Source: Octopus sinensis (lineage: Eukaryota). From it: 64,000 nucleotides of DNA. Positions 3,928 to 50,727 of this stretch are shown piece after piece (position 1 is the first letter of the stretch; every line of letters starts with the position of its first letter). The stretch lies in NCBI RefSeq assembly GCF_006345805.1, contig NC_043004.1:43028001-43092000 (forward strand), in the 5' to 3' direction. The notes below the pieces were generated by a model, which was not told the origin of the DNA, searched no databases, and was given only the letters and a program-made list of their open reading frames with translations. The position numbers and the translations under genes are program-made.

Positions 3928-4149
3928 TACGGAGATGTACGTGCATAGCAAGTGATTTGATCTGAGATCGTGTGCTGAAACGAAAACAATTGCAGCGTGG
4001 GAGGTGTTTGTAAGCCATTTAAGAAACACACAAAAGCCGTTCGATTCACTTCAACAGTTAAGTTTAATTCGTCAAAACATTATTTTCGTCGTTTAAGACC
4101 CCGACCTGTTCACTGACAAAAATCCGTGATGCAGCACGGATTTTTGTCA

Positions 4150-4150
<1 letters not shown>
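3928..4150 (-). mobile_element. PLE-derived mini-element, same family as 49565-49907
   Basis: Near-identical to 49565-49780; ends in the hairpin ctgacaaaaatccgtg-atgcag-cacggatttttgtcag. Confidence 0.8.
4068..4120 (-). ncRNA. HHR motif, G3-C8 core (diverged copy)
   Basis: Minus strand: tttgtca GTGAACA g gtcgg ggtcttaa acgac GAAA ataatgt TT tgacgaa. Confidence 0.6.
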
Positions 4151-4184
<34 letters not shown>

Positions 4185-5476
4185 TTTTTTTTTCTTCTTT
4201 CAAATGTGCTTCCATTTCTTGCCGAGTGTCTTCCCGACTCCTAGGGCAAAGAAACTCATAGTATACATTGGTAGGCCATTAAACCAAACTCAGTAGTTAG
4301 TTAATTTTTTTTTTTTTTAAGTTAAATTAAAATACATGAGCAGCAACAGTTCTCACATCGACAATGCTCTTCTCAATACGTGTGATGTACCAGTTAAGAC
4401 AATCTTTTGCACTTCTTGCAGGGATGGTAAGCCAGGGATCATTCTCATATAATTTTCGGTTCCCTTCTTGATCATTCCTAGTGCTCCTACGATCACTGGT
4501 ATTGTAACCGCCTTGAGATGCCACATTTTCTCAATTTCAATGAGTATGTCTTTCTATTTTCTGAGCTTTTCAAACTCTTTCGCTGAGATATTATGATCAC
4601 AGGGGATGCTCATGTCGATCAATAAGCAAACTTTATTGTTTTGGTCTTTCACAACAATATCTGGTTTATTGGCCTTGATGGTTCGGTCTGTATGTACTGG
4701 AAAGTCCCACAGAATGGTTACATTTTCTCCTTCAGTTACAGCCTCAGGGTGGTGATTATACCACTTGTCGGCAGTTTTGATATTGTAATGCCGACTTATT
4801 AGCCAGTGGAGATATTGGCCAACTCTGTCATGTCTTAATTTATACTCCACTGGTGCTAAGACTTTACATCCAGAGATTAGGTGGTCTACTGTTTCAATCA
4901 TGTTGCAGAATCGGCATTTTGGGTGTGCTCCATTTTTGATCACATTGGCCTGGTAGTTCCGAGTTAATAGGCTTTGATCTTGAGCAGCCAGGATGAAACC
5001 TTCGCTCTCTGCTTTTAGCCCTGAGCTCCGTAGCCACTGATAGGTTTGCTTCTGGTCAACATCAGCTTGTTTGCTGCGGGTCACATATTTGCCGTGCAGA
5101 GGTTTCTCCTCCCACCTATCAGCCAATTGCTCGTGCGCTTTTTTCATTGCCATCATTTTCACCTTCTTTGCAACAATAGTTGCCGTACTTCCCTCGGGTT
5201 GTTCAGTTTGGGTATCCTGCACGAGATCAATAGCAAATTTTTTGCTTTCCTTTATGATAGAATGAAGCTTCTTTCGTCTCTCGTGATTTTCCACGAGCTT
5301 TAGCATCCAGTCATTCGATATTTCGAGATATATGGCCAGTCCAATTGTGGTTGTTTTGTAAGCTAGTTCAAATTGGATCAGGCCTCGACCTCCTTGGGCT
5401 CTGGGAAGGTAAAGGCGATATACGTCTGCCTTTGGGTGGTGCATCCTATTACAATTCAGCAGCTTGCGTATTTTTC

Positions 5477-5541
<65 letters not shown>
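4151..5541 (-). mobile_element. 5'-truncated R4/Dong-like non-LTR retrotransposon flanked by (TAA)n
   Basis: RT C-terminus, CCHC knuckle, restriction-like endonuclease and 3'UTR; (TTA)n at 4151-4182 and 5478-5541. Confidence 0.85.
4353..5444 (-). pseudogene. RT thumb, CCHC zinc knuckle and RLE endonuclease, interrupted at ~4554
   Basis: LYLPRAQGGRGL; CRFCNMIETVDHLISGC; RHD; KPDIVV..LIDMSIP..EKLRK. After the stop the homology continues KDILIEIEKMWHLKAVTIPVIVGALG..VLRRALSM*. Confidence 0.9.
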
Positions 5542-5542
<1 letters not shown>

Positions 5543-5664
5543 CAGTTGGGGTACGTAGCCCGCACTCATAACCACTACGTCAAATGTAAATATATATATA
5601 TTATATATATATATATATAAAATATATTATGACGGAATTATATTCCAAACTTACAAGGAAAAGT

Positions 5665-11296: not shown

Positions 11297-12406
11297 TCAT
11301 GTAAAGAGTTCAGGCCACTTGAGGTCAAGGGAGGCTTTGAACAAAGCGGTCGTCGGCATCTTCACCATCTCGTCTGGCAGCTTGTTCCACGGATCCGCAA
11401 CCCGGACGGAGAAAGCTCCTCTCCTTCGATTGAGATGAAATCGTCGCAGGTAGAGCTTTTCGGAATGACCCCGCAGCCGACGCTCTGGAGCAGGAGTGAA
11501 GAACAGCTCTTTCGAGAGGTTACACTTTCCGCTTATGATGTTGTGGGCGAGAATGAGATCACCACGGCGGCGGCGTTTTTCAAGAGAATAAAGGTCGAGC
11601 GTCCTTAGCCTTTCTTCATAGGACAAATTTTTGAGACCATGAACCATGCGGGTAGCCAGCTTCTGGACTCTTTCGAGATGCTGTATGTCTTTGAGGAGAT
11701 AAGTAGAAGAGGCTTGAATCCCGTACTCTAATAGGGGTCTCACCAGCGTGACATAGAGTGGTAGGAATATGGCTGCTGTGAGCATTCCGAATGACCGTCG
11801 AATCAAGAACAGAATTCCGCGTGCTTTGTTGGCAGCATGGACGCACTGGGCCGAAGGCGAAAAGGAGGAATCCACCAAGATACCCAGATACAGCATCACT
11901 ATCATCGAGGATGCGCGTCACCAATTCTTCCATTACCAGTACGTTGGTCAAGCATGATCTCTTCGGCAGAAGCCGTGTTGGGAATCAGAGATAGAGGCTG
12001 TGTTTTGGAGGTGGAGCATCATACTTTTCTTAAGGATGGTTTCGAACATCTTGCTGATTATTGATGTAAGGGAAACCGGTCGGTAGTAAAGCGGGTCTTC
12101 GCGGCTCCCTTTCTTGAAAATTGGGCAGATTATCGCTGTTTTCCAGTCCGAAGGTATAACACCCGTCGCCAATGGCATATTGAATAGACGTGTTAAGGGC
12201 TCGCAGATGACCGGAGCCAACGCTTTGATAACTCGTGGGTGTATGCCGTCAGAGCCGTGACCCTTGTTGACATCGAGGCCTTGAATAACACGTTTGACTT
12301 CGTCCCGCGTGATGACCAATCGAAGCATTGGAGGTACCGATCTATCAAATGGAGGGGGTTCACGACCATCATCTTGTTTGAAAATAGTTGAAAAAGCCTC
12401 GGCAAA
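11297..12406 (-). pseudogene. LINE ORF2 RT remnant, frameshifted, catalytic core deleted
   Basis: GSDGIHPRVIK, PIFKKGSR..YRPVSLTS, QHGF, LTNVL..ILDDSDAV joined directly to LGILVD..LVRPLLEY..LERVQ..RRRRGDLI; no KAFD, PQGS or ADD motifs. Confidence 0.9.
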
Positions 12407-13699
12407 TTATTGGCTCTGTTGATAAGGGTCCTCAATCGATACGCCTGTTGAGTCTACCAACGTTGCAATCTGGTTGTTCAAGCGGGAATTCCGTTGGACA
12501 TGGGCAAAGAAGGTTTTTGGATTGCTACTGGCATTTGCCGCGATTTTGTATTCATAACTGAAGCGCTCTTCCTTTTCAATTTTCACGGCTCGGTCTCGTT
12601 GAGTTTTGTACACCTCAAAAGCTGCAGTCGAATCCAGATTTTTGAATTCAGCCCAAGCAATATCTCTGAGTCGACGTTCTCGTTTAACCTTCTTCGTCAC
12701 CCAGGGCTTGTGTTTCTTCTTGGGAAGCCCAACGGGAACTGCCTGGTCAGTCAACCAGATTACATATGCTTCGAGGGATGACCATAGTTCGTCAACTGAG
12801 GACAACGTCATCAGGGATCGCCAGTCCAGAAGCGCGGAAGCCTCGGTTAGAATTTCAAGATTAATTGCAGAGAAGACTCTACGTGGCAGCGAAGTAGTCG
12901 TGGGCGTACAAAAAGTTGTGTGCATGACGAACTTCAGGACCGCATGATCACTCTTGGCAAGAGGGGCGCACACAGATACGTCTGACACTGATCTTGGATA
13001 GCGGGAGAATACCAGATCCAGCATAGATGGCTGCTGCCCAGACCGATGCCTTGTCGGATATTCAACATGTTGCGATAGAAAACAATCTTCAGCCACGTCA
13101 AGAAGGGCCTGGCCGAACCGGGAAGATGTTGTACAAATTGATGCGGGCCAATCGATCGTGGGAGCGTTGAAGTCTCCTAGTACCAAACAGTCATGCGAAG
13201 CTGAAACGAATCTTATCGCTTCGAGTAAATGAACATCGTCCTGGGGGTCGGCAAGAGGCGGCCTGTAGACAGCTAACACGGGCAGGCAAAACTCGGATAG
13301 GCTCAGCTTGCAATAGACGGCATCGAATTTTGTTGTAGGTTGGGCATTAGTGGGTAGAATACCGCTGGACGGTTTGTGCTCAGACTTAACATACACAGCA
13401 ACACCTCCACCTCGCCTTTTTTCTCTGTCACATCTGAAAAGGACGTAGACCTGCAGGTGGATTTCTGAGTCCTTTACTGCTGGAGTCAGCCAAGTCTCGG
13501 TGATAGCTATCACATCCGGGGAGTCACGTATGGCCAGTGTAAATAGTTCGCTGAACTTTGGAAATAAGGAGCACGAGTTGGTATAGACGATGCTGAGCTG
13601 TGAAGTTTGAGGGGCGGGAGTTGGGGAACAAGCAGAATAAGGGGTATCAGACATAGCATCGTTGACGGGGGTATCAACTTCACTTCGATTTGCCCTCAC
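12407..13699 (-). pseudogene. LINE ORF2 apurinic endonuclease domain and linker, premature stop at 12407
   Basis: YTNSCSL, IAITETWL, GGGVAVY, VYRPP, LGDFNAP, LDLVF, SDHAVL. Confidence 0.92.
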
Positions 13700-14865
13700 T
13701 TCACTTTCCCTGTCAGCACTACAGCATGCGACCAGAGGTAGGACTTGATTATTTGTCCATCTTGGATGCGTAAACCCTTCTCTCCCATCTGTTTCCTCAT
13801 CTTTAGTTCGGATATTAGGTTTCTCCGGCGAATTCTCTCTCTCAGTGAGTATTCCTCGCGAAAAGCCATATTGGGGTCCTCCCAGGCATGCGTCTGAGCT
13901 CTGTTCAGAAAGGCTGAAGCCTCCCGATCGGAAGAAAAGATTACCCTTACTGGGCGTGGTCTAGTATCTGAGGTTGGGTTCGCTTGGAATCTTCCTAGCC
14001 GAGCGACCTTATTGATACTGACATTTTCGTTCACAGAGAACAATTCTCCAACTAAAATGGAAACAAAATTAATGTGTTCCTTTAGGCGGTTTATGCCTGT
14101 ATCACAGGTGGATTCAGCTTTACCATAAATTATTGCTGATCTTGAGTGGGCAAAATGTTCTCTACTATGAGCTGCGGTATTCGATTCTTCATTGGATGAT
14201 TTCGAAAGGGTGGTTTCATAGCCATCAGACTTATGTCGGCCTGTGGGGTCGATCGGAATGGGTTTAGTGGTCATAATTTTCCCGCCTGGTTTGGAACTGA
14301 ACTGCCTCTTCTTCGGTTTGGGGGAGCACCACTCCCCAGATGAACTCACATCGAGATCGTTCAGAATTGGTTGAGCAATGGCATTAATGGGAAGGACAAG
14401 TGAGGGAGAATCCAAACAGATTTTATCGTGATCAGGTTTCATAGCTAAATCTGCCCCCCTGGCGTTTTGACTACGTTTCTTCTTTTGGGGAGAACAACGG
14501 TCTTCAGGTGGGTTTGAGTCTACGCTCCTCAAATTAGGTTGGGGAACCTCCGGGACCGAAAAGGCAGATGAGAAAGAATCCGCACAGGAACGATCATGTG
14601 CAAAAACGACCGCCGGTTCCTTTGCCTTCTTTGGCCGCTTCGATTTTGTTCCCTTCGGTTTGGACGTCTCCAGGGAAGAAATCAAGGGTGACTCTGCGTC
14701 AATAGGAGACTGTTTATTCAGTAAAAGAGCAACAACAGACTTTAGGTGCTCGACCTCTTGTTTGAGCAACAGCAACTGCTCGTTGAGCTGACTATTGGTA
14801 GGACCATCATCTTGATGAGAAGCCCTTCTTGCAGATCTCAGTTTCGATCTGTAGGTAGCTGACAT
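13696..14865 (-). CDS. LINE ORF1 protein (coiled coil and RRM-like domain), 389 aa, open
   Basis: Heptad LNEQLLLLKQEVEHLKSVVALLL; RSAIIYGKAES..VARLGR..RPVRVIFSS..RIRRRNLISELKMR. Confidence 0.8.
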   Translation of the reverse strand: MSATYRSKLRSARRASHQDDGPTNSQLNEQLLLLKQEVEHLKSVVALLLNKQSPIDAESPLISSLETSKPKGTKSKRPKKAKEPAVVFAHDRSCADSFSSAFSVPEVPQPNLRSVDSNPPEDRCSPQKKKRSQNARGADLAMKPDHDKICLDSPSLVLPINAIAQPILNDLDVSSSGEWCSPKPKKRQFSSKPGGKIMTTKPIPIDPTGRHKSDGYETTLSKSSNEESNTAAHSREHFAHSRSAIIYGKAESTCDTGINRLKEHINFVSILVGELFSVNENVSINKVARLGRFQANPTSDTRPRPVRVIFSSDREASAFLNRAQTHAWEDPNMAFREEYSLRERIRRRNLISELKMRKQMGEKGLRIQDGQIIKSYLWSHAVVLTGKVK

Positions 14866-16092
14866 GATAGATGGTTGACTAAAAACAATCTTCTATGGGC
14901 TCTAGGACAAATCTGAGTTAAATCAGGAACAAAAAACAGTTGCAATCCTTGTAGGAGTAGGCAACAGCAGACAAAATCTGAGAGAGTTTGGGCTGAGCCG
15001 AATCACAATCCAAGATTGAAAGCAGACGGTGCAACGAGTCGGGAACCCTTCCTAATTGTCTGAAGCAGCTTTAGGATAAGGGATAGTAGGTCCAACTTTA
15101 GAATATTGATATGCATGTAAAATGTTCCACACGATTAAATATCATTTGACGTGCCATTTAGTACTTCAATAACTGCGTCTGCGCATGTTTGTATATGTGT
15201 GAATAATGTGTTTATGTGCGAGAAGGCACATTTTTTTGTCTATCGTTAATTTAGATTATTAATTTTTTCTTTTTTTCTCACGTTTTTCCCTTTAAAGTAT
15301 TTATTTTTAAAGTAATTTATACGTTGGAGGGAGGGCTGAGGGTGTGTTTTTATTGTAAATTCTCCCAACACAGAGAAAGAAAGGGATTTTTCGTTGGCGC
15401 CACCGGTATAATTCAGACACGGGGAAAGACATCTCGGTGTCATCGTCAACTTGTATGTTTCTAATTGTAGCGATAGTAGTAACAGCAGTAAATTCTGATA
15501 GCAGCAGTAGCAATAGTTCATAAAGTGAGATGAAAAACGATCGGTCAAAGAGAGTTCAAATTGTCTGCAATAGTGTTGATGGAACTTGCGAGCAGTGACC
15601 TTGACTTTGAGAAAAATCAAGGAGGGGCCGACTATAAACAGTACTTGTGAATAGAGTCGTGTACGAGCAGAGTGAAACTATAGAGAGTATTGTTTCTTTT
15701 CTTTATTTTTCTTCTTAATCTCCACGTGTTTAATACTGTGATTGCAATAAAAGGTATGTCTGCATATTTCGGGTAGTCAAGAAGAAAATAAAGGTTAGCT
15801 GGTGTTTACGTCCATACTTCTAGCGTGCATTTAATTGTGTTGTTACAATAAAGACATTTTTACATAATCTGATACTCAAGGAAGAGGGGACGGCAAAATG
15901 TTCACACAAAAAATGGAGATATTTATGATCCTAAAATTTTTGTCCCAAACTGTAGGTTTGGAACTCTTTAACTTATTTTGAGGGAAATTCAAATTACTCA
16001 CAGAAAATAGTAGATCTTCCAGTAATTACAGTTGTTTATCAGTAGTCCTGCTGGGTTGTATATGTTTTACTGTGTCTTCTGTGTCTATATAC

Positions 16093-16630
16093 AGGGTGGC
16101 GAATACTCGTTATAAATATCACCACCAGTGGCCTAGCATGTATAAAAAGTCAATAGACAACATATTCGTATTTCAAAATAGAAAATTACCCTTTAACAGG
16201 TAATTTGTACATGCTAGAAATAGCAGCCAAACACGGCCAAAAATCACAATTTTATAGCAAATTTCGAAGTAAATGAAAAATAAAAACCATTACCTTGTTA
16301 TATAACGGTTATACCATGGTTTCGAATTTCTTTAGCAAATAATATTGCTTGCCATCTGTTAATAGATAATTTTGCATGACCATATTATCTACCAGGCGAA
16401 TTCTCGTCAGTAACCGGCCTAAACAACTAACCTATAATTCAGAGACCAGATAACACGTATCCCATCATTATACACTATAGTTTTTCAAATATCGCACGCA
16501 GGCGCATTTACAGTCAGCAATAGATACAATGCCGAGCTGAAACTTCGAGAATGCTAAGAACATATTCATAAGGTACATATATATATAGGGTGGCGAATAC
16601 TGATGGTGATACTTATAACGAGTATTCGCC

Positions 16631-16689
<59 letters not shown>

Positions 16690-16806
16690 CTTATGAATAT
16701 GTTCTTAGCATTCTCGAAGTTTCAGCTCGGCATTGTATCTATTGCTGACTGTAAATGCGCCTGCGCGCGATATTTGAAAAACGGTAATTTTCGATTTTGA
16801 AATACG
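16093..16806. repeat. Nested inverted repeats of an unclassified element next to (TA)n
   Basis: 16093-16127 inverted at 16601-16635; 16167-16190 plus 16480-16576 inverted at 16686-16806. Confidence 0.8.
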
Positions 16807-23568: not shown

Positions 23569-23603
23569 ATATCGACCGGTTTCGCTATCGCTATTCATGA
23601 TAT
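23569..23603 (-). ncRNA. Minimal type-I HHR, A3-U8 core
   Basis: atatc ATGAATA gc gata gc GAAA ccgg TC gatat; 5-bp stem I, 2-bp stem II, ACCGGU stem III, GUC site. Confidence 0.75.
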
Positions 23604-23637
23604 TATGTTTTACTTATTTGAATATATATTCAACATA

Positions 23638-23672
23638 ATATCATGAATAGCGATAGCGAAACCGGTCGTTAT
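23638..23672 (+). ncRNA. Minimal type-I HHR, A3-U8 core (second arm)
   Basis: atatc ATGAATA gcgatagc GAAA ccgg TC gttat. Confidence 0.7.
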
Positions 23673-25889: not shown

Positions 25890-26164
25890 CGATTAAATAA
25901 TTAAATTTAGAAAAATTAGAAGAAGAGTTTTTTTAAAGGAATATTTCTATAGTAGTGTTCAGATATAAGTGGCATTCTGCCTTTCTCTGACTCCCTTGTT
26001 TGCACTTGTGTGTTCGAGGTCGTTGTGAGTTCTTGGTAGGGTAGAAGAAGAATGCTGATGAGGGGAGGGGGTGGGAAAATCTGGGAGTGCCCTGATGGTC
26101 GTATTTTGAATGGTCAGTGGCGGCTAGCAGTCGCAGTTCAATTCAGGAGAATATTTCTTTGGCA

Positions 26165-27206
26165 TAAAAATATAGAAAAACTCATAGAATTCCAGGAAGT
26201 GTGAAACGGACTGGACGTAAACATCCAATTCCCGATGGAATATAGCCAGCAACAACTCCCCTTCCTCGATATCCTCATTAAGAAAGCTAATAATATAATA
26301 GAAACAGACATATATTATAAGCCTACAGACTCTAAGCAATACCTTCCATTCAATTCATGCCACCCAGACACACGAGGATGAATATCCCCTTCAATCTAGC
26401 AAAAAGGATATGCACTATATTCTCTAACGCAAACACCAGAGACACACGACTACAAGAACTAAAAGATACCCTTATCACCAGGAACTATCCACCTTCACTT
26501 ATTGACAAGTGCATTCAACGTGCCCTTCAACTTAACATCAAGGAACTGAGACATCCCAAATCAAAGAAAAACTTACAACCAAAAGCCTTACCATACATCT
26601 CCACACACAACCCTCTCAATAACGAAGCCTTCGGCACCATCCTCCACAACATACCCCTCCTAAAAAAAGACCACAGAATGAACACAATCCTCCAAACACA
26701 CACGATGATAAAAAGCAAGAGACAGCCTAAATCCATGAAAAGTCTCCTAACACAAGCCCGAATTCACTCTTCAACTCAGAAGCCGACAGTAAAAAAAATG
26801 TGGAAGACCCAATTGCGGGATATGCGACTATCTAATTGAGGGATCAGAGTTCTCCTTCAAACAGGGACAACGGTTTACAGTGAAAAGCAACTTCACATGT
26901 GCTTCGGAGAACCTAATATACTCACTAACCTGCTCCGGGTGTCAAGAGCAGTACATAGGCCAAACAAAAAATAGTTTGCGTAAACGAATGGCCCTGCACA
27001 GATCCCAGATAAAAATTCCCCAAAACAGAAAAATAGCTTTTAGCCAACACATAGATACTTGCGCCAACAAAAAAACACCAAGCTTCAGGATTTCCCCCCT
27101 CTACCAATTTAGGGACGATACAACCTCGAGACAACGAATAAGTAAAGAAACTCTCTTTATTACAAAATACAGGCCACTTCTTAACGGGTCTACGACAAAC
27201 AATTAA
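26165..27206 (+). pseudogene. PLE RT C-terminus/thumb and GIY-YIG endonuclease, frameshifted
   Basis: IQFPME..LPFLDILI..TDIYYKPTDSKQYLPFNSCHP; NIPFNLAKRICTI; Cys linker KCGRPNCGIC; NLIYSLTCSGCQEQYIGQTKNSLRKRMALHR. Confidence 0.92.
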
Positions 27207-35692: not shown

Positions 35693-36775
35693 CCTAGGAA
35701 TTGATCGAGTCACTGCTATATTCGAGTTTCCAACATTTTTTCCCATCTCTGCACTGGTCTCACGGAGCTCCTTCTTGAATTCCTTGTGACAAGTGCATGA
35801 GGGCGGCCGCGTCTGAAGCTCGTGTGTGCTGGCACATCCGTAGTGCTGCTTTTACGTTATGTATCATTCATGCAGTTTCCTTTTTTTATAAATAATACAT
35901 GAGCATGTCATCAAAAGAGAACCTACACGCATCGAGAAAATACATTGACTGCCAAACTCCAGCCTGTTGTTAATTTGGGACCCTAGTCTATCTATGAGAA
36001 TAGCTTCCTTAATTCTTAGATTACCCAACTTTCTTTCATTGTCCTCAGTTGTAACAGTTATGCTCTTGTCGGTGTTCCGGCATCAGTCTAGATGTTTTCT
36101 GAAGGAGGAGGGTCTTGTGTTTAGATGTCCTTTGATGAGAATGTTTAACGGTCTCGTTGTACTACACAGATAAAACTGTTACATTTGTTACACTGTACTC
36201 TATACACAACATTTACCCGTTGGCATAAGTCTGTGTCACGGATGGGACAGTTTGCTAGTGTGCATTGATTTATGTCCCTAGCCCGTTTCCTTGCGAGGTG
36301 TTTTCTCAGAATAAAATGTAACAAATGCATCAGGTTTTATGTGGATAGCACAACAAGACTGTTACATGTTTGTATCGAAGAACATTGGAACAGAAAAGCT
36401 TCCTCCTTCAGAAAACATCTAGACAGATGACGGAACACGACCAGAAGCATAATCGTGACAATTGAGGCCAATGAAAGGAATTTGAATAATCTAAGAATTA
36501 AGTAAGCTATTCTCATAGACAGACTGTGGCCCCAAATTAACAACAGACTGGAGCTTGGCAGTCAATTTATTTTCTAGCTACATCTGGATGCTTTTAAAAA
36601 GGAAACTGCATGTATAATGCATAGCTTAGAAGCAGCGTTACGCGCTCACGCACATCTCCCGAGGAATTCTGGAAGAAGCTTCATGGGACCAGTGCAATGA
36701 CATTTCCGGGGAAAAATAGAGGAGAAAAAAACCATTGGAAAATCTATTATAGCACCGACTCAATCAATTCCTCGG

Positions 36776-49461: not shown

Positions 49462-49500
<39 letters not shown>

Positions 49501-49511
49501 TATTCTGATAT

Positions 49512-49566
<55 letters not shown>

Positions 49567-49704
49567 CGGAGATGTACTCGCATAGCAAGTAATTTGATCT
49601 GAGATCGTGTGCTGAAACGAAAACAATTGCAGCGTGGAAGGTGTTTATAAGCCATTTAAGAAACACACAAAAGCCGTTCGATTCACTTCAACATTTAAGT
49701 TTAA

Positions 49705-49753
49705 TTTGTCAAAATATTTTCGTCGCTAAAATCGCGACCTGTTCACTGACAAA
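49705..49753 (-). ncRNA. Type-I HHR, G3-C8 core (opposite arm)
   Basis: tttgtca GTGAACA g gtcgc gatttta gcgac GAAA atat TT tgacaaa. Confidence 0.8.
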
Positions 49754-49773
49754 GTCCGAGATGCAGCACGGAC

Positions 49774-49823
49774 TTTGTCAGTGAACAGGTCGCGGATTTT
49801 AGCGACGAAAATATTTTGACAAA
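49774..49823 (+). ncRNA. Type-I HHR, G3-C8 core
   Basis: tttgtca GTGAACA g gtcgc ggatttta gcgac GAAA atat TT tgacaaa; 7-bp stem I, 5-bp stem II, AAUAUU stem III. Confidence 0.8.
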
Positions 49824-50727
49824 TTAAACTTAAATGTTGAAGTGAATCGAACGGCTTTTGTGTGTTTCTTAAATGGCTTATAAACACCTTCCACGCTGCA
49901 ATTGTTTATATATATATATATATCAGAATATGCATGCACAGGCATATATATTTGCAGGTGAGAAGTTAGAAACGTAGACAACGTCCAGGGAATTACTGTT
50001 TCTCATGGTAATGCATAATCTCAAAAGTATATTTTCGTATGGACCAAGGTAAAACTTATTACACGTATGGAAATTATACATAAGCTATTATTTAAAATTC
50101 GCACATATTTGGACTGTGTGTGAATACATGTCTACATCACCTAATCCTCGTCTATCATCTCGTGATTAGATCCACATCATTTATTTCGATCCAGGCTTTA
50201 GGACTTTCATCCAATGGATGAAAATATAATTCTACATTGTAGAAGTATATTCTAGCAGAAATAACAAAAATACACACCTGTCACAATTCCATGATAAGTG
50301 TATATTATGACCAAACTGTATTAATTCTTGGTAAAACGAACACCGGGTTTTTAATTTTAAAAAGTAGATTGGCTTATTAATATCTTCGTATGATACATTT
50401 TAAAACGTAACCTGTCATATATCACTAGTTGAAATCTTGATGGATATCTCCATCATAGTTTAAGATTTTCATATATTCGAAGTAAAAATAGAAATAGATT
50501 AACTCCGATATGTTTATATCGAAACTGAAGAAATAAATCTATATATCGAAAACTTCGTGCACCTGATTTGCCTTAAGAGATAAGAATTATATTTATGTGT
50601 TTCTTATTTTCGTATTATTGGAATTTTACATATCCTACAGTGTTGATGCAAATCCAGTTCGTAATCAATCAATTTATCATGAACATATATAAAGATGTAA
50701 TATTAGTTACATGCACACAGAGACATA

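What the first reader, a model, noticed from the sequence alone, without database searches (positions are those of the whole stretch)
49705..49823. G3-C8 hammerhead (GUGAACA) with perfect stems, present at two loci
Seen: 7-bp stem I, 5-bp stem II, one extra G after A9, palindromic AAUAUU stem III and a UUU triplet. The same core is in the separate insertion at 4068-4120, so it is a family trait rather than decay. Inference: a natural inverted-pair ribozyme with an unusual cleavage triplet.
Basis: partly seen in the sequence, partly recalled or inferred. Interest (0 to 1): 0.82.

Follow-up and report, generated by a model that had tools for sequence, protein, structure and literature searches.

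The report
Swapped-pair hammerhead in Penelope retrotransposon
This is the end repeat of a young Penelope-like jumping gene, present thousands of times in this genome, and it carries a hammerhead RNA motif whose two paired core letters are swapped (G3-C8); it is likely a slow self-cutting RNA, but cutting has not been shown.

Summary
The motif is real (49774-49823 +, mirrored at 49705-49753 -). It is the hammerhead in the pLTR of a Penelope-like element (PLE). Copies with a 793-aa RT + GIY-YIG frame carry the same repeat at 98% identity. The core 17-mer occurs 6,349 times. The window holds a 343-bp head-to-head pair of short pLTR copies, one with the PLE tail, in a TA run. Sister PLE families in the same genome have U3-A8 or C3-G8 with compensated stems, so G3-C8 is a kept base pair, not decay. 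The UUU triplet is not unusual: the U3-A8 sister family and published minimal PLE hammerheads have U17. Against strong activity: nearly all copies came from uncut RNA, 33 of 40 TA-flanked short copies start with an extra G (likely the cap), and starts at the cut site are not clearly above a control. No natural G3-C8 hammerhead turned up in six paper searches, but the key paper (Lunse 2017) was not held. This scan noted G3-C8 motifs behind PLE RTs in two other genomes. Verdict: new variant of a known kind.

The parts
49565..49907 (.). Whole insertion: two short pLTR copies joined head to head, in a (TA)n run
   Evidence: same layout as the ends of ORF-bearing copy L319
49565..49620 (-). PLE tail, the 55-nt 3' extension present on one arm only; likely also part of the start of the PLE reading frame
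   Evidence: 3' ends of 297 distinct matches: 153 at the tail end, about 95 at 54-61 nt before it; peptide likeness weak (E=0.086 among 120 proteins)
49705..49753 (-). Hammerhead motif of the tail-bearing arm (G3 49746, C8 49741, U17 49712; loop II one G shorter)
49758..49769 (+). 12-nt junction GAGATGCAGCAC: the 5' start of the short RNA plus one extra G; shared by both arms
   Evidence: monomers begin here; G in 33 of 40 TA-flanked copies where the parent has C or T; variants in 47 palindromes
49774..49823 (+).
49824..49907 (+). Rest of the tail-less arm, ending at the first PLE 3' end
3928..4151 (-). Second, older insertion of the same family (91% identical): one full arm with tail and about 30 nt of the inverted arm
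4068..4120 (-). Hammerhead motif of the second insertion (same core; 4-bp stem II; non-palindromic loop III)

Best explanation
The motif is the hammerhead in the pLTR of a young RT + GIY-YIG Penelope-like element, and it is likely a slow ribozyme that would cut after U17 only as a dimer or with the element's protein, kept by selection because G3-C8 preserves the 3-8 base pair. Shown: the link to the PLE frame, the copy number, the two 3' ends, target duplications, and the change of both partners of the 3-8 pair and of stem pairs between sister families. Inferred: a promoter inside the pLTR makes a capped RNA of about 205 nt that starts 24-26 nt before G3; the PLE protein copies it uncut onto nicks in both strands of an AT-rich target, once from the tail end and once from 55 nt inside; the two cDNA ends anneal over a 12-nt imperfect palindrome (8 of 12 paired) and are repaired, which gives the head-to-head pair seen in the window. 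Cutting is therefore not part of making most copies; its likely role is to process tandem or read-through precursors of the parent.
For: [quoted passage not shown] 549 copies carry the upstream junction. 3-8 pair by family: U3-A8 20 of 21, C3-G8 32 of 33 (both picked by protein), G3-C8 26 of 29 (picked by junction). Double-sided stem changes between families at stem II pairs 3 and 4 and stem I pairs 2 and 3; the pLTRs align over both 3' ends. Sites with a minor letter above 10%: 0 of 42 in core and stems, 15 of 140 downstream (p=0.024; biased, see against). Stems I and II form with probability 0.70-1.0 in the natural monomer RNA, and two copies cofold as a dimer. In the anole PLE, C3G or G8C kills cleavage, the double mutant partly restores it, cleavage needs the protein, and uncut RNA is the template (PMC11167929). 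Target duplications of 9-14 bp in 10 of 18 non-TA sites.
Against: No cleavage assay and no raw RNA reads. Copies that start at the predicted cut are rare: 9 of 31 TA-flanked starts in a 23-nt window (6 exact, 3 compatible), while a control window had up to 4 of 31 at one start and 3 at a comparable TG start, so there is no clear excess. G3-C8, U17 and a 2-bp stem III each lower the rate (recalled, except the partial rescue above). A young sister family has A9C, which shows that this clade tolerates odd cores. Pfam gives no hit on the parent frames themselves; the domain call rests on motifs and on 55% identity to L259 (RVT_1 E=0.002, below cut-off), whose sister L166 hits GIY-YIG (E=7.6e-8). 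Many loci were picked by patterns that include the core. The cap origin of the extra G and the annealing model are inferences.
Confidence: 0.6

Rival explanations
1. The motif is the pLTR hammerhead by descent but no longer cuts at a useful rate; its fold or sequence is kept for another job, such as binding of the PLE protein or acting as a downstream promoter element of the pLTR promoter.
For: Templates are almost all uncut (6,349 core copies; extra G in 33 of 40). No clear excess of starts at the cut. Catalytic mutants did not affect insertion in vitro in the anole PLE. The clade also carries U3.G8 and A9C cores. The motif lies 25-60 nt after the inferred start.
Against: The 3-8 pair is a tertiary contact of the active fold; three ORF-linked families each keep a Watson-Crick pair there with different letters, which a promoter element would not need.
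Confidence: 0.3
2. G3 and C8 are two chance changes in one source element that were amplified with it (decay carried along by a master copy).
For: All copies of a family descend from few sources; the protein tree does not resolve the base of the clade.
Against: G3-C8 persists through subfamilies that differ at N7 (A, C, U), loop II and loop III (AAUU or AAUAUU); two independent transversions that restore a pair are unlikely without selection.
Confidence: 0.08
3. The palindrome is a foldback DNA transposon (MITE) and the hammerhead is a chance likeness.
For: A 139-bp near-perfect inverted repeat in a TA run.
Against: Many copies are single arms; the ends are unequal; the same repeat ends RT-bearing elements; 0 of 30 shuffles give the motif.
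Confidence: 0.02

Closest known systems
Minimal type I hammerheads of metazoan PLEs (Cervera and de la Pena 2014, PMC4209133; parts 1-2 of 4 and supplement passages read)
   Same: In the pLTR; type I; extra nucleotide between 9 and 10.1; G10.1-C11.1; short palindromic stem III; NUH triplet, U17 included; pairs on opposite strands already noted there; U3-A8 variant known
   Different: G3-C8 instead of C3-G8 or U3-A8; the extra nucleotide is G where their consensus has H; stem I is 7 bp
Hammerhead of Poseidon from Anolis carolinensis, PAc (Frangieh et al. 2024, PMC11167929; parts 1-2 of 4 read)
   Same: Tail between two RT start sites; AT-rich target; both strands extended; uncut RNA is the template; engineered C3G/G8C partly active
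   Different: There G3-C8 is an engineered mutant; here it is the natural state. The parent here has a Cys-rich linker of Nematis-like spacing (by eye against Fig. S2 of PMC8557442)
Natural U3-A8 hammerheads (Perreault et al. 2011, PMC3088659; section 8 and passages read)
   Same: Both partners of the 3-8 pair change together
   Different: That section reports U3-A8 only, a double transition; G3-C8 is a double transversion
Non-LTR retrozymes (PMC7229834 passages; bioRxiv 10.64898/2026.07.22.740005 part 1 of 5)
   Same: Short, non-coding, hammerhead-bearing derivatives of PLE pLTRs
   Different: Retrozymes are head-to-tail tandem arrays processed by cleavage; these copies are dispersed single arms or head-to-head pairs made from uncut RNA

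Membership tests
PLE minimal type I hammerhead | Lies in the pLTR of an RT + GIY-YIG element | tested here: met
   (L319 and seven more loci)
PLE minimal type I hammerhead | Stems I and II around the core, G10.1-C11.1, extra nucleotide after A9 | tested here: met
   the extra nucleotide is G in 188 of 188 G3-C8 motifs
PLE minimal type I hammerhead | Short palindromic stem/loop III | tested here: met
   AAUAUU in 166 of 188 as the commonest class; not met in the copy at 4068-4120
PLE minimal type I hammerhead | Core CUGANGA | tested here: not met
   GUGAACA; the 3-8 Watson-Crick pair is kept, swapped
PLE minimal type I hammerhead | NUH cleavage triplet | tested here: met
   UUU
PLE minimal type I hammerhead | Self-cleavage after N17 | not testable with these tools
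   only an indirect genomic test, inconclusive
EN+ Penelope-like element (parent) | One frame with RT followed by GIY-YIG endonuclease | tested here: met
   motifs; homology; no direct Pfam hit on L319 or L318
EN+ Penelope-like element (parent) | Optional tail at one end; inverted 5'-truncated copy; TA-rich targets | tested here: met
Nematis clade | Groups with Nematis RTs in a tree | not tested
   no reference Nematis sequence in the tree; linker spacing alike by eye only
Non-LTR retrozyme | Head-to-tail tandem units, each with a hammerhead | tested here: not met
   dispersed places; two same-strand copies close together seen only in L178, L179, L320 and L065/L066
MITE / foldback DNA transposon | Equal terminal inverted repeats, no RT-bearing parent | tested here: not met

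The most novel reading that the evidence does not exclude
The G3-C8/U17 core is a naturally slowed hammerhead that lets a capped, pLTR-only RNA survive uncut and spread as a SINE-like parasite of its own PLE (core 17-mer outnumbers a 17-mer 42 nt upstream 6,349 to 652, against 2,700 to 2,012 in the C3-G8 sister family). One clade then holds a natural series C-G, U-A, G-C and U.G at positions 3-8, and the 12-nt junctions of the head-to-head pairs record two cDNAs annealing, a direct trace of how PLE inverted repeats form.
Probability: 0.3. Interest if true: 0.7.

Novelty: new variant of a known kind. Interest (0 to 1): 0.5.

Why it matters
A natural G3-C8 core would complete the set of 3-8 pairs known from mutagenesis and widen the descriptors used to find hammerheads (CUGANGA-based searches and Rfam miss it), so some PLEs said to lack a hammerhead may have one. 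The sister families give a ready natural series for asking what the PLE hammerhead is for, which is still open. The short head-to-head copies with a fixed start are the simplest case for testing how PLE inverted repeats and tails arise.

Tried and rejected
Rfam scan: no hammerhead family in the rows shown. GIY-YIG family search: the 30 loci fetched had no likeness to this repeat; they led to other PLE clades and, through L108, to the right clade. The PLE remnant in the window (26157-27206) belongs to another family. Pattern for copies without the inverted arm: 30 of 58 examined, no ORF next to them. Sequencing runs: no RNA holder listed on record, contigs only, so no RNA ends; in the four runs laid (coded organisms A-D) none of the 17 variable places fell in the core, GAAA or U16.1/U17, but depth over 49733-49770 was low. 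Cut-site test inconclusive; the binomial (10 of 32) was computed before L348 was dropped as a TA expansion and ignores microhomology, so I do not rely on it. A protein search with the 30-aa peptide was too short to run. PDB: no match to the parent protein. Sequence beyond the tail in older copies stops coding after about 55 codons and did not lead to a full-length element. A B-box-like GTTCGATTC on the opposite strand (49678-49686) suggested a tRNA-type SINE; rejected because of the PLE parent. The sequence before the short start looks like a branch point and 3' splice site; splicing as the source of the fixed start was judged less likely than a capped start, since it would need a constant 3-nt exon, but it is not excluded. 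Metagenome relatives: 8 loci, 5 close; the scan found a C3-G8/U17 motif in L340; C3-G8 in L338 and U3-A8 in L339 are by eye; none had G3-C8. Literature searches for a natural G3-C8: and look-ups found only engineered cases. Lunse, Weinberg and Breaker 2017 (PMC5785218) is not held, and file 1 of the supplement of PMC4209133 could not be searched; either may already show G3-C8.

Full report
Observation. The plus strand from 49774 to 49823 reads as a minimal type I hammerhead with 7-bp stem I, core GUGAACA, one extra G, 5-bp stem II, GAA, palindromic AAUAUU and U17 at 49816. The interval is the centre of a 139-bp inverted repeat (138 of 139 identical), so a mirror motif lies on the minus strand at 49753-49705. 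The copy at 4120-4068 shares the core but has a 4-bp stem II and a non-palindromic loop III. None of 30 shuffles of the window gave such a motif. Rfam shows no hammerhead family in the 150 rows listed of 190.

The repeat family. The left arm with its 55-nt extension had 1,093 first-look candidates in G000, the 40 scored being 97-100% identical; the exact core 17-mer occurs 6,349 times, control 0. The unit is about 205 nt. It starts at GAGATGCAGCAC and has two 3' ends: of 297 distinct matches, 153 end at the tail end and about 95 end 54-61 nt earlier. Most copies sit in TA runs; 10 of 18 non-TA sites show 9-14-bp target duplications. Copies are single arms or head-to-head pairs with the tail on one arm. 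These are the tail and inverted-copy features described for PLEs (PMC8557442, passages; PMC11167929, parts 1-2 of 4).

The parent. Three loci shared sequence upstream of the unit; that junction occurs 549 times. Of 24 stretches examined, L319 holds a 793-aa open frame followed after about 1 kb by the pLTR, with an inverted 3' UTR, pLTR and tail at its other end, 98% identical to the window arm; L314, L318, L321, L324, L325, L326 and L329 show parts of the same layout. The frame has RT motifs, a Cys-rich linker and a YIGET-type endonuclease. Pfam does not hit it directly; it is 55% identical to L259 (RVT_1 E=0.002), whose sister L166 hits GIY-YIG, and aligns weakly over 666 columns with a Pfam-confirmed PLE. 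The best named homolog is an RT-domain protein at 55%. The linker spacing resembles Nematis by eye; this was not tested by a tree with references.

Is G3-C8 kept by selection? Two sister families were found by protein search, without regard to the motif. One has U3-A8 in 20 of 21 motifs, with extra G, AAUU and U17; the other has C3-G8 in 32 of 33, with A9C; junction-picked loci of this family have G3-C8 in 26 of 29 and similarity-picked loci in 96 of 98 (counts include only motifs that still match the flanking letters). An older group has U3.G8 or C3-G8 with the same stem letters as here (18 matches). The pLTRs align, including both 3' ends. Among 254 parsed motifs the pair is G-C 188, C-G 32, U-A 16, U.G 9, other 9, with double-sided changes at stem II pairs 3 and 4 and stem I pairs 2 and 3 between families (sampling is not random). 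Older G3-C8 subfamilies vary at N7, loop II and loop III but keep G3-C8 and U17. A relative from a metagenome has C3-G8 with U17 and a palindromic stem III (L340). The protein tree leaves the base of the clade open, so the direction of change rests on C3-G8 being the general state.

Does it cut? Not shown. The natural monomer RNA folds stems I and II (pair probabilities 0.70-1.0) and two copies cofold as a dimer; a read-through RNA of the palindrome forms one hairpin instead. In the anole PLE the engineered C3G/G8C double mutant is partly active and cleavage needs the protein. The genomic record says templates were uncut: of 40 TA-flanked copies that include AGATGCAGCACGG, 33 have G before it, 6 C and 1 A, while the parent has C or T. 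I read the G as the cap copied by RT (inference). Starts at the predicted cut are 9 of 31 loci in a 23-nt window (my hand count of 90 rows; 20 loci fetched; one dropped as a TA expansion), against up to 4 of 31 at one start in a control window; TG starts after a TA run are favoured anyway, so this is inconclusive. No RNA run with raw reads was available.

How the palindrome formed. In 47 head-to-head pairs the 12-nt centre is GAGATGCAGCAC (3), its reverse complement (3), mixed forms (GTGATGCAGCAC 12, GTGCTGCAGCAC 3, GTGCTGCATCAC 2) or shortened forms (the sample is biased by the two query centres). This fits two cDNA ends, each copied to the RNA start, annealing with 8 of 12 pairs and being repaired; fold-back or template switching at the same microhomology is not excluded. 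Short copies dominate this family (6,349 core against 652 upstream 17-mers) but not the C3-G8 sister (2,700 against 2,012); two families are no proof of a link with the core change.

Comparison with what is known. It works like the minimal PLE hammerheads of PMC4209133 (parts 1-2 of 4; supplement passages), which already include opposite-strand pairs, palindromic stem III, U17 and U3-A8. It fails only the CUGANGA core. PMC3088659 (section 8) reports natural U3-A8. PMC8495972 and PMC3884650 (passages) mention G3-C8 only as engineered. PMC6765202 (section 11 part 2) reviews dimer cleavage. Searches found no natural G3-C8, but Lunse et al. 2017 was not held and one supplement file could not be searched. 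Two earlier notes of this scan describe G3-C8 motifs behind PLE RTs in other genomes; I did not check them.

Verdict. A real, conserved G3-C8 variant of the PLE hammerhead, in a short inverted pLTR pair of a young element. PLE origin about 0.97; slow but real ribozyme about 0.6. New variant of a known kind; interest 0.5.

Noticed in passing
window 25883-25846 (-) and 26157-27206 (+): A second PLE family: inverted pLTR with a U3-A8 hammerhead (palindromic ACCGGU, A17) in front of a broken RT C-terminus + GIY-YIG frame, 59-67% identical to the 781-aa family of L161.
   Followed up: partly
window 35687-35650 (-); inverted repeat 35915-36595: A canonical C3-G8 minimal hammerhead (AAUAU, U17) beside a 262-bp inverted repeat that may be an old PLE remnant.
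   Followed up: no
L229-L263 (G000, for example C29:2285209-2288340): A young PLE family with frames up to 1,044 aa whose hammerhead has C at position 9 (CUGAUGC) in about 2,700 copies; another odd natural core.
   Followed up: partly
L181-L198: An old family with a U3.G8 wobble in 12 of 18 matches.
   Followed up: partly
window 49500-49522 and 49909-49931: The flanks of the insertion are themselves a 23-bp inverted repeat that includes non-TA letters, perhaps target DNA copied in inverted form.
   Followed up: no
L319 and other long copies, just before the pLTR start: The sequence looks both like a branch point with 3' splice site and like an initiator; PLEs keep introns near the pLTR.
   Followed up: partly
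L272, L306-L313, L366-L377: An older subfamily carries an inverted copy of the hammerhead 5' part as a hairpin upstream, and about 1 kb of shared sequence beyond the tail.
   Followed up: partly
window 4554-5579 (-) and 11297-14892 (-): Fragments of other non-LTR retrotransposon frames, one with endonuclease and RT pieces (labels by eye).
   Followed up: no
window 16529-16732 and 23580-23661: Other inverted repeats around TA-rich centres; they give the spurious miRNA matches in Rfam.
   Followed up: no
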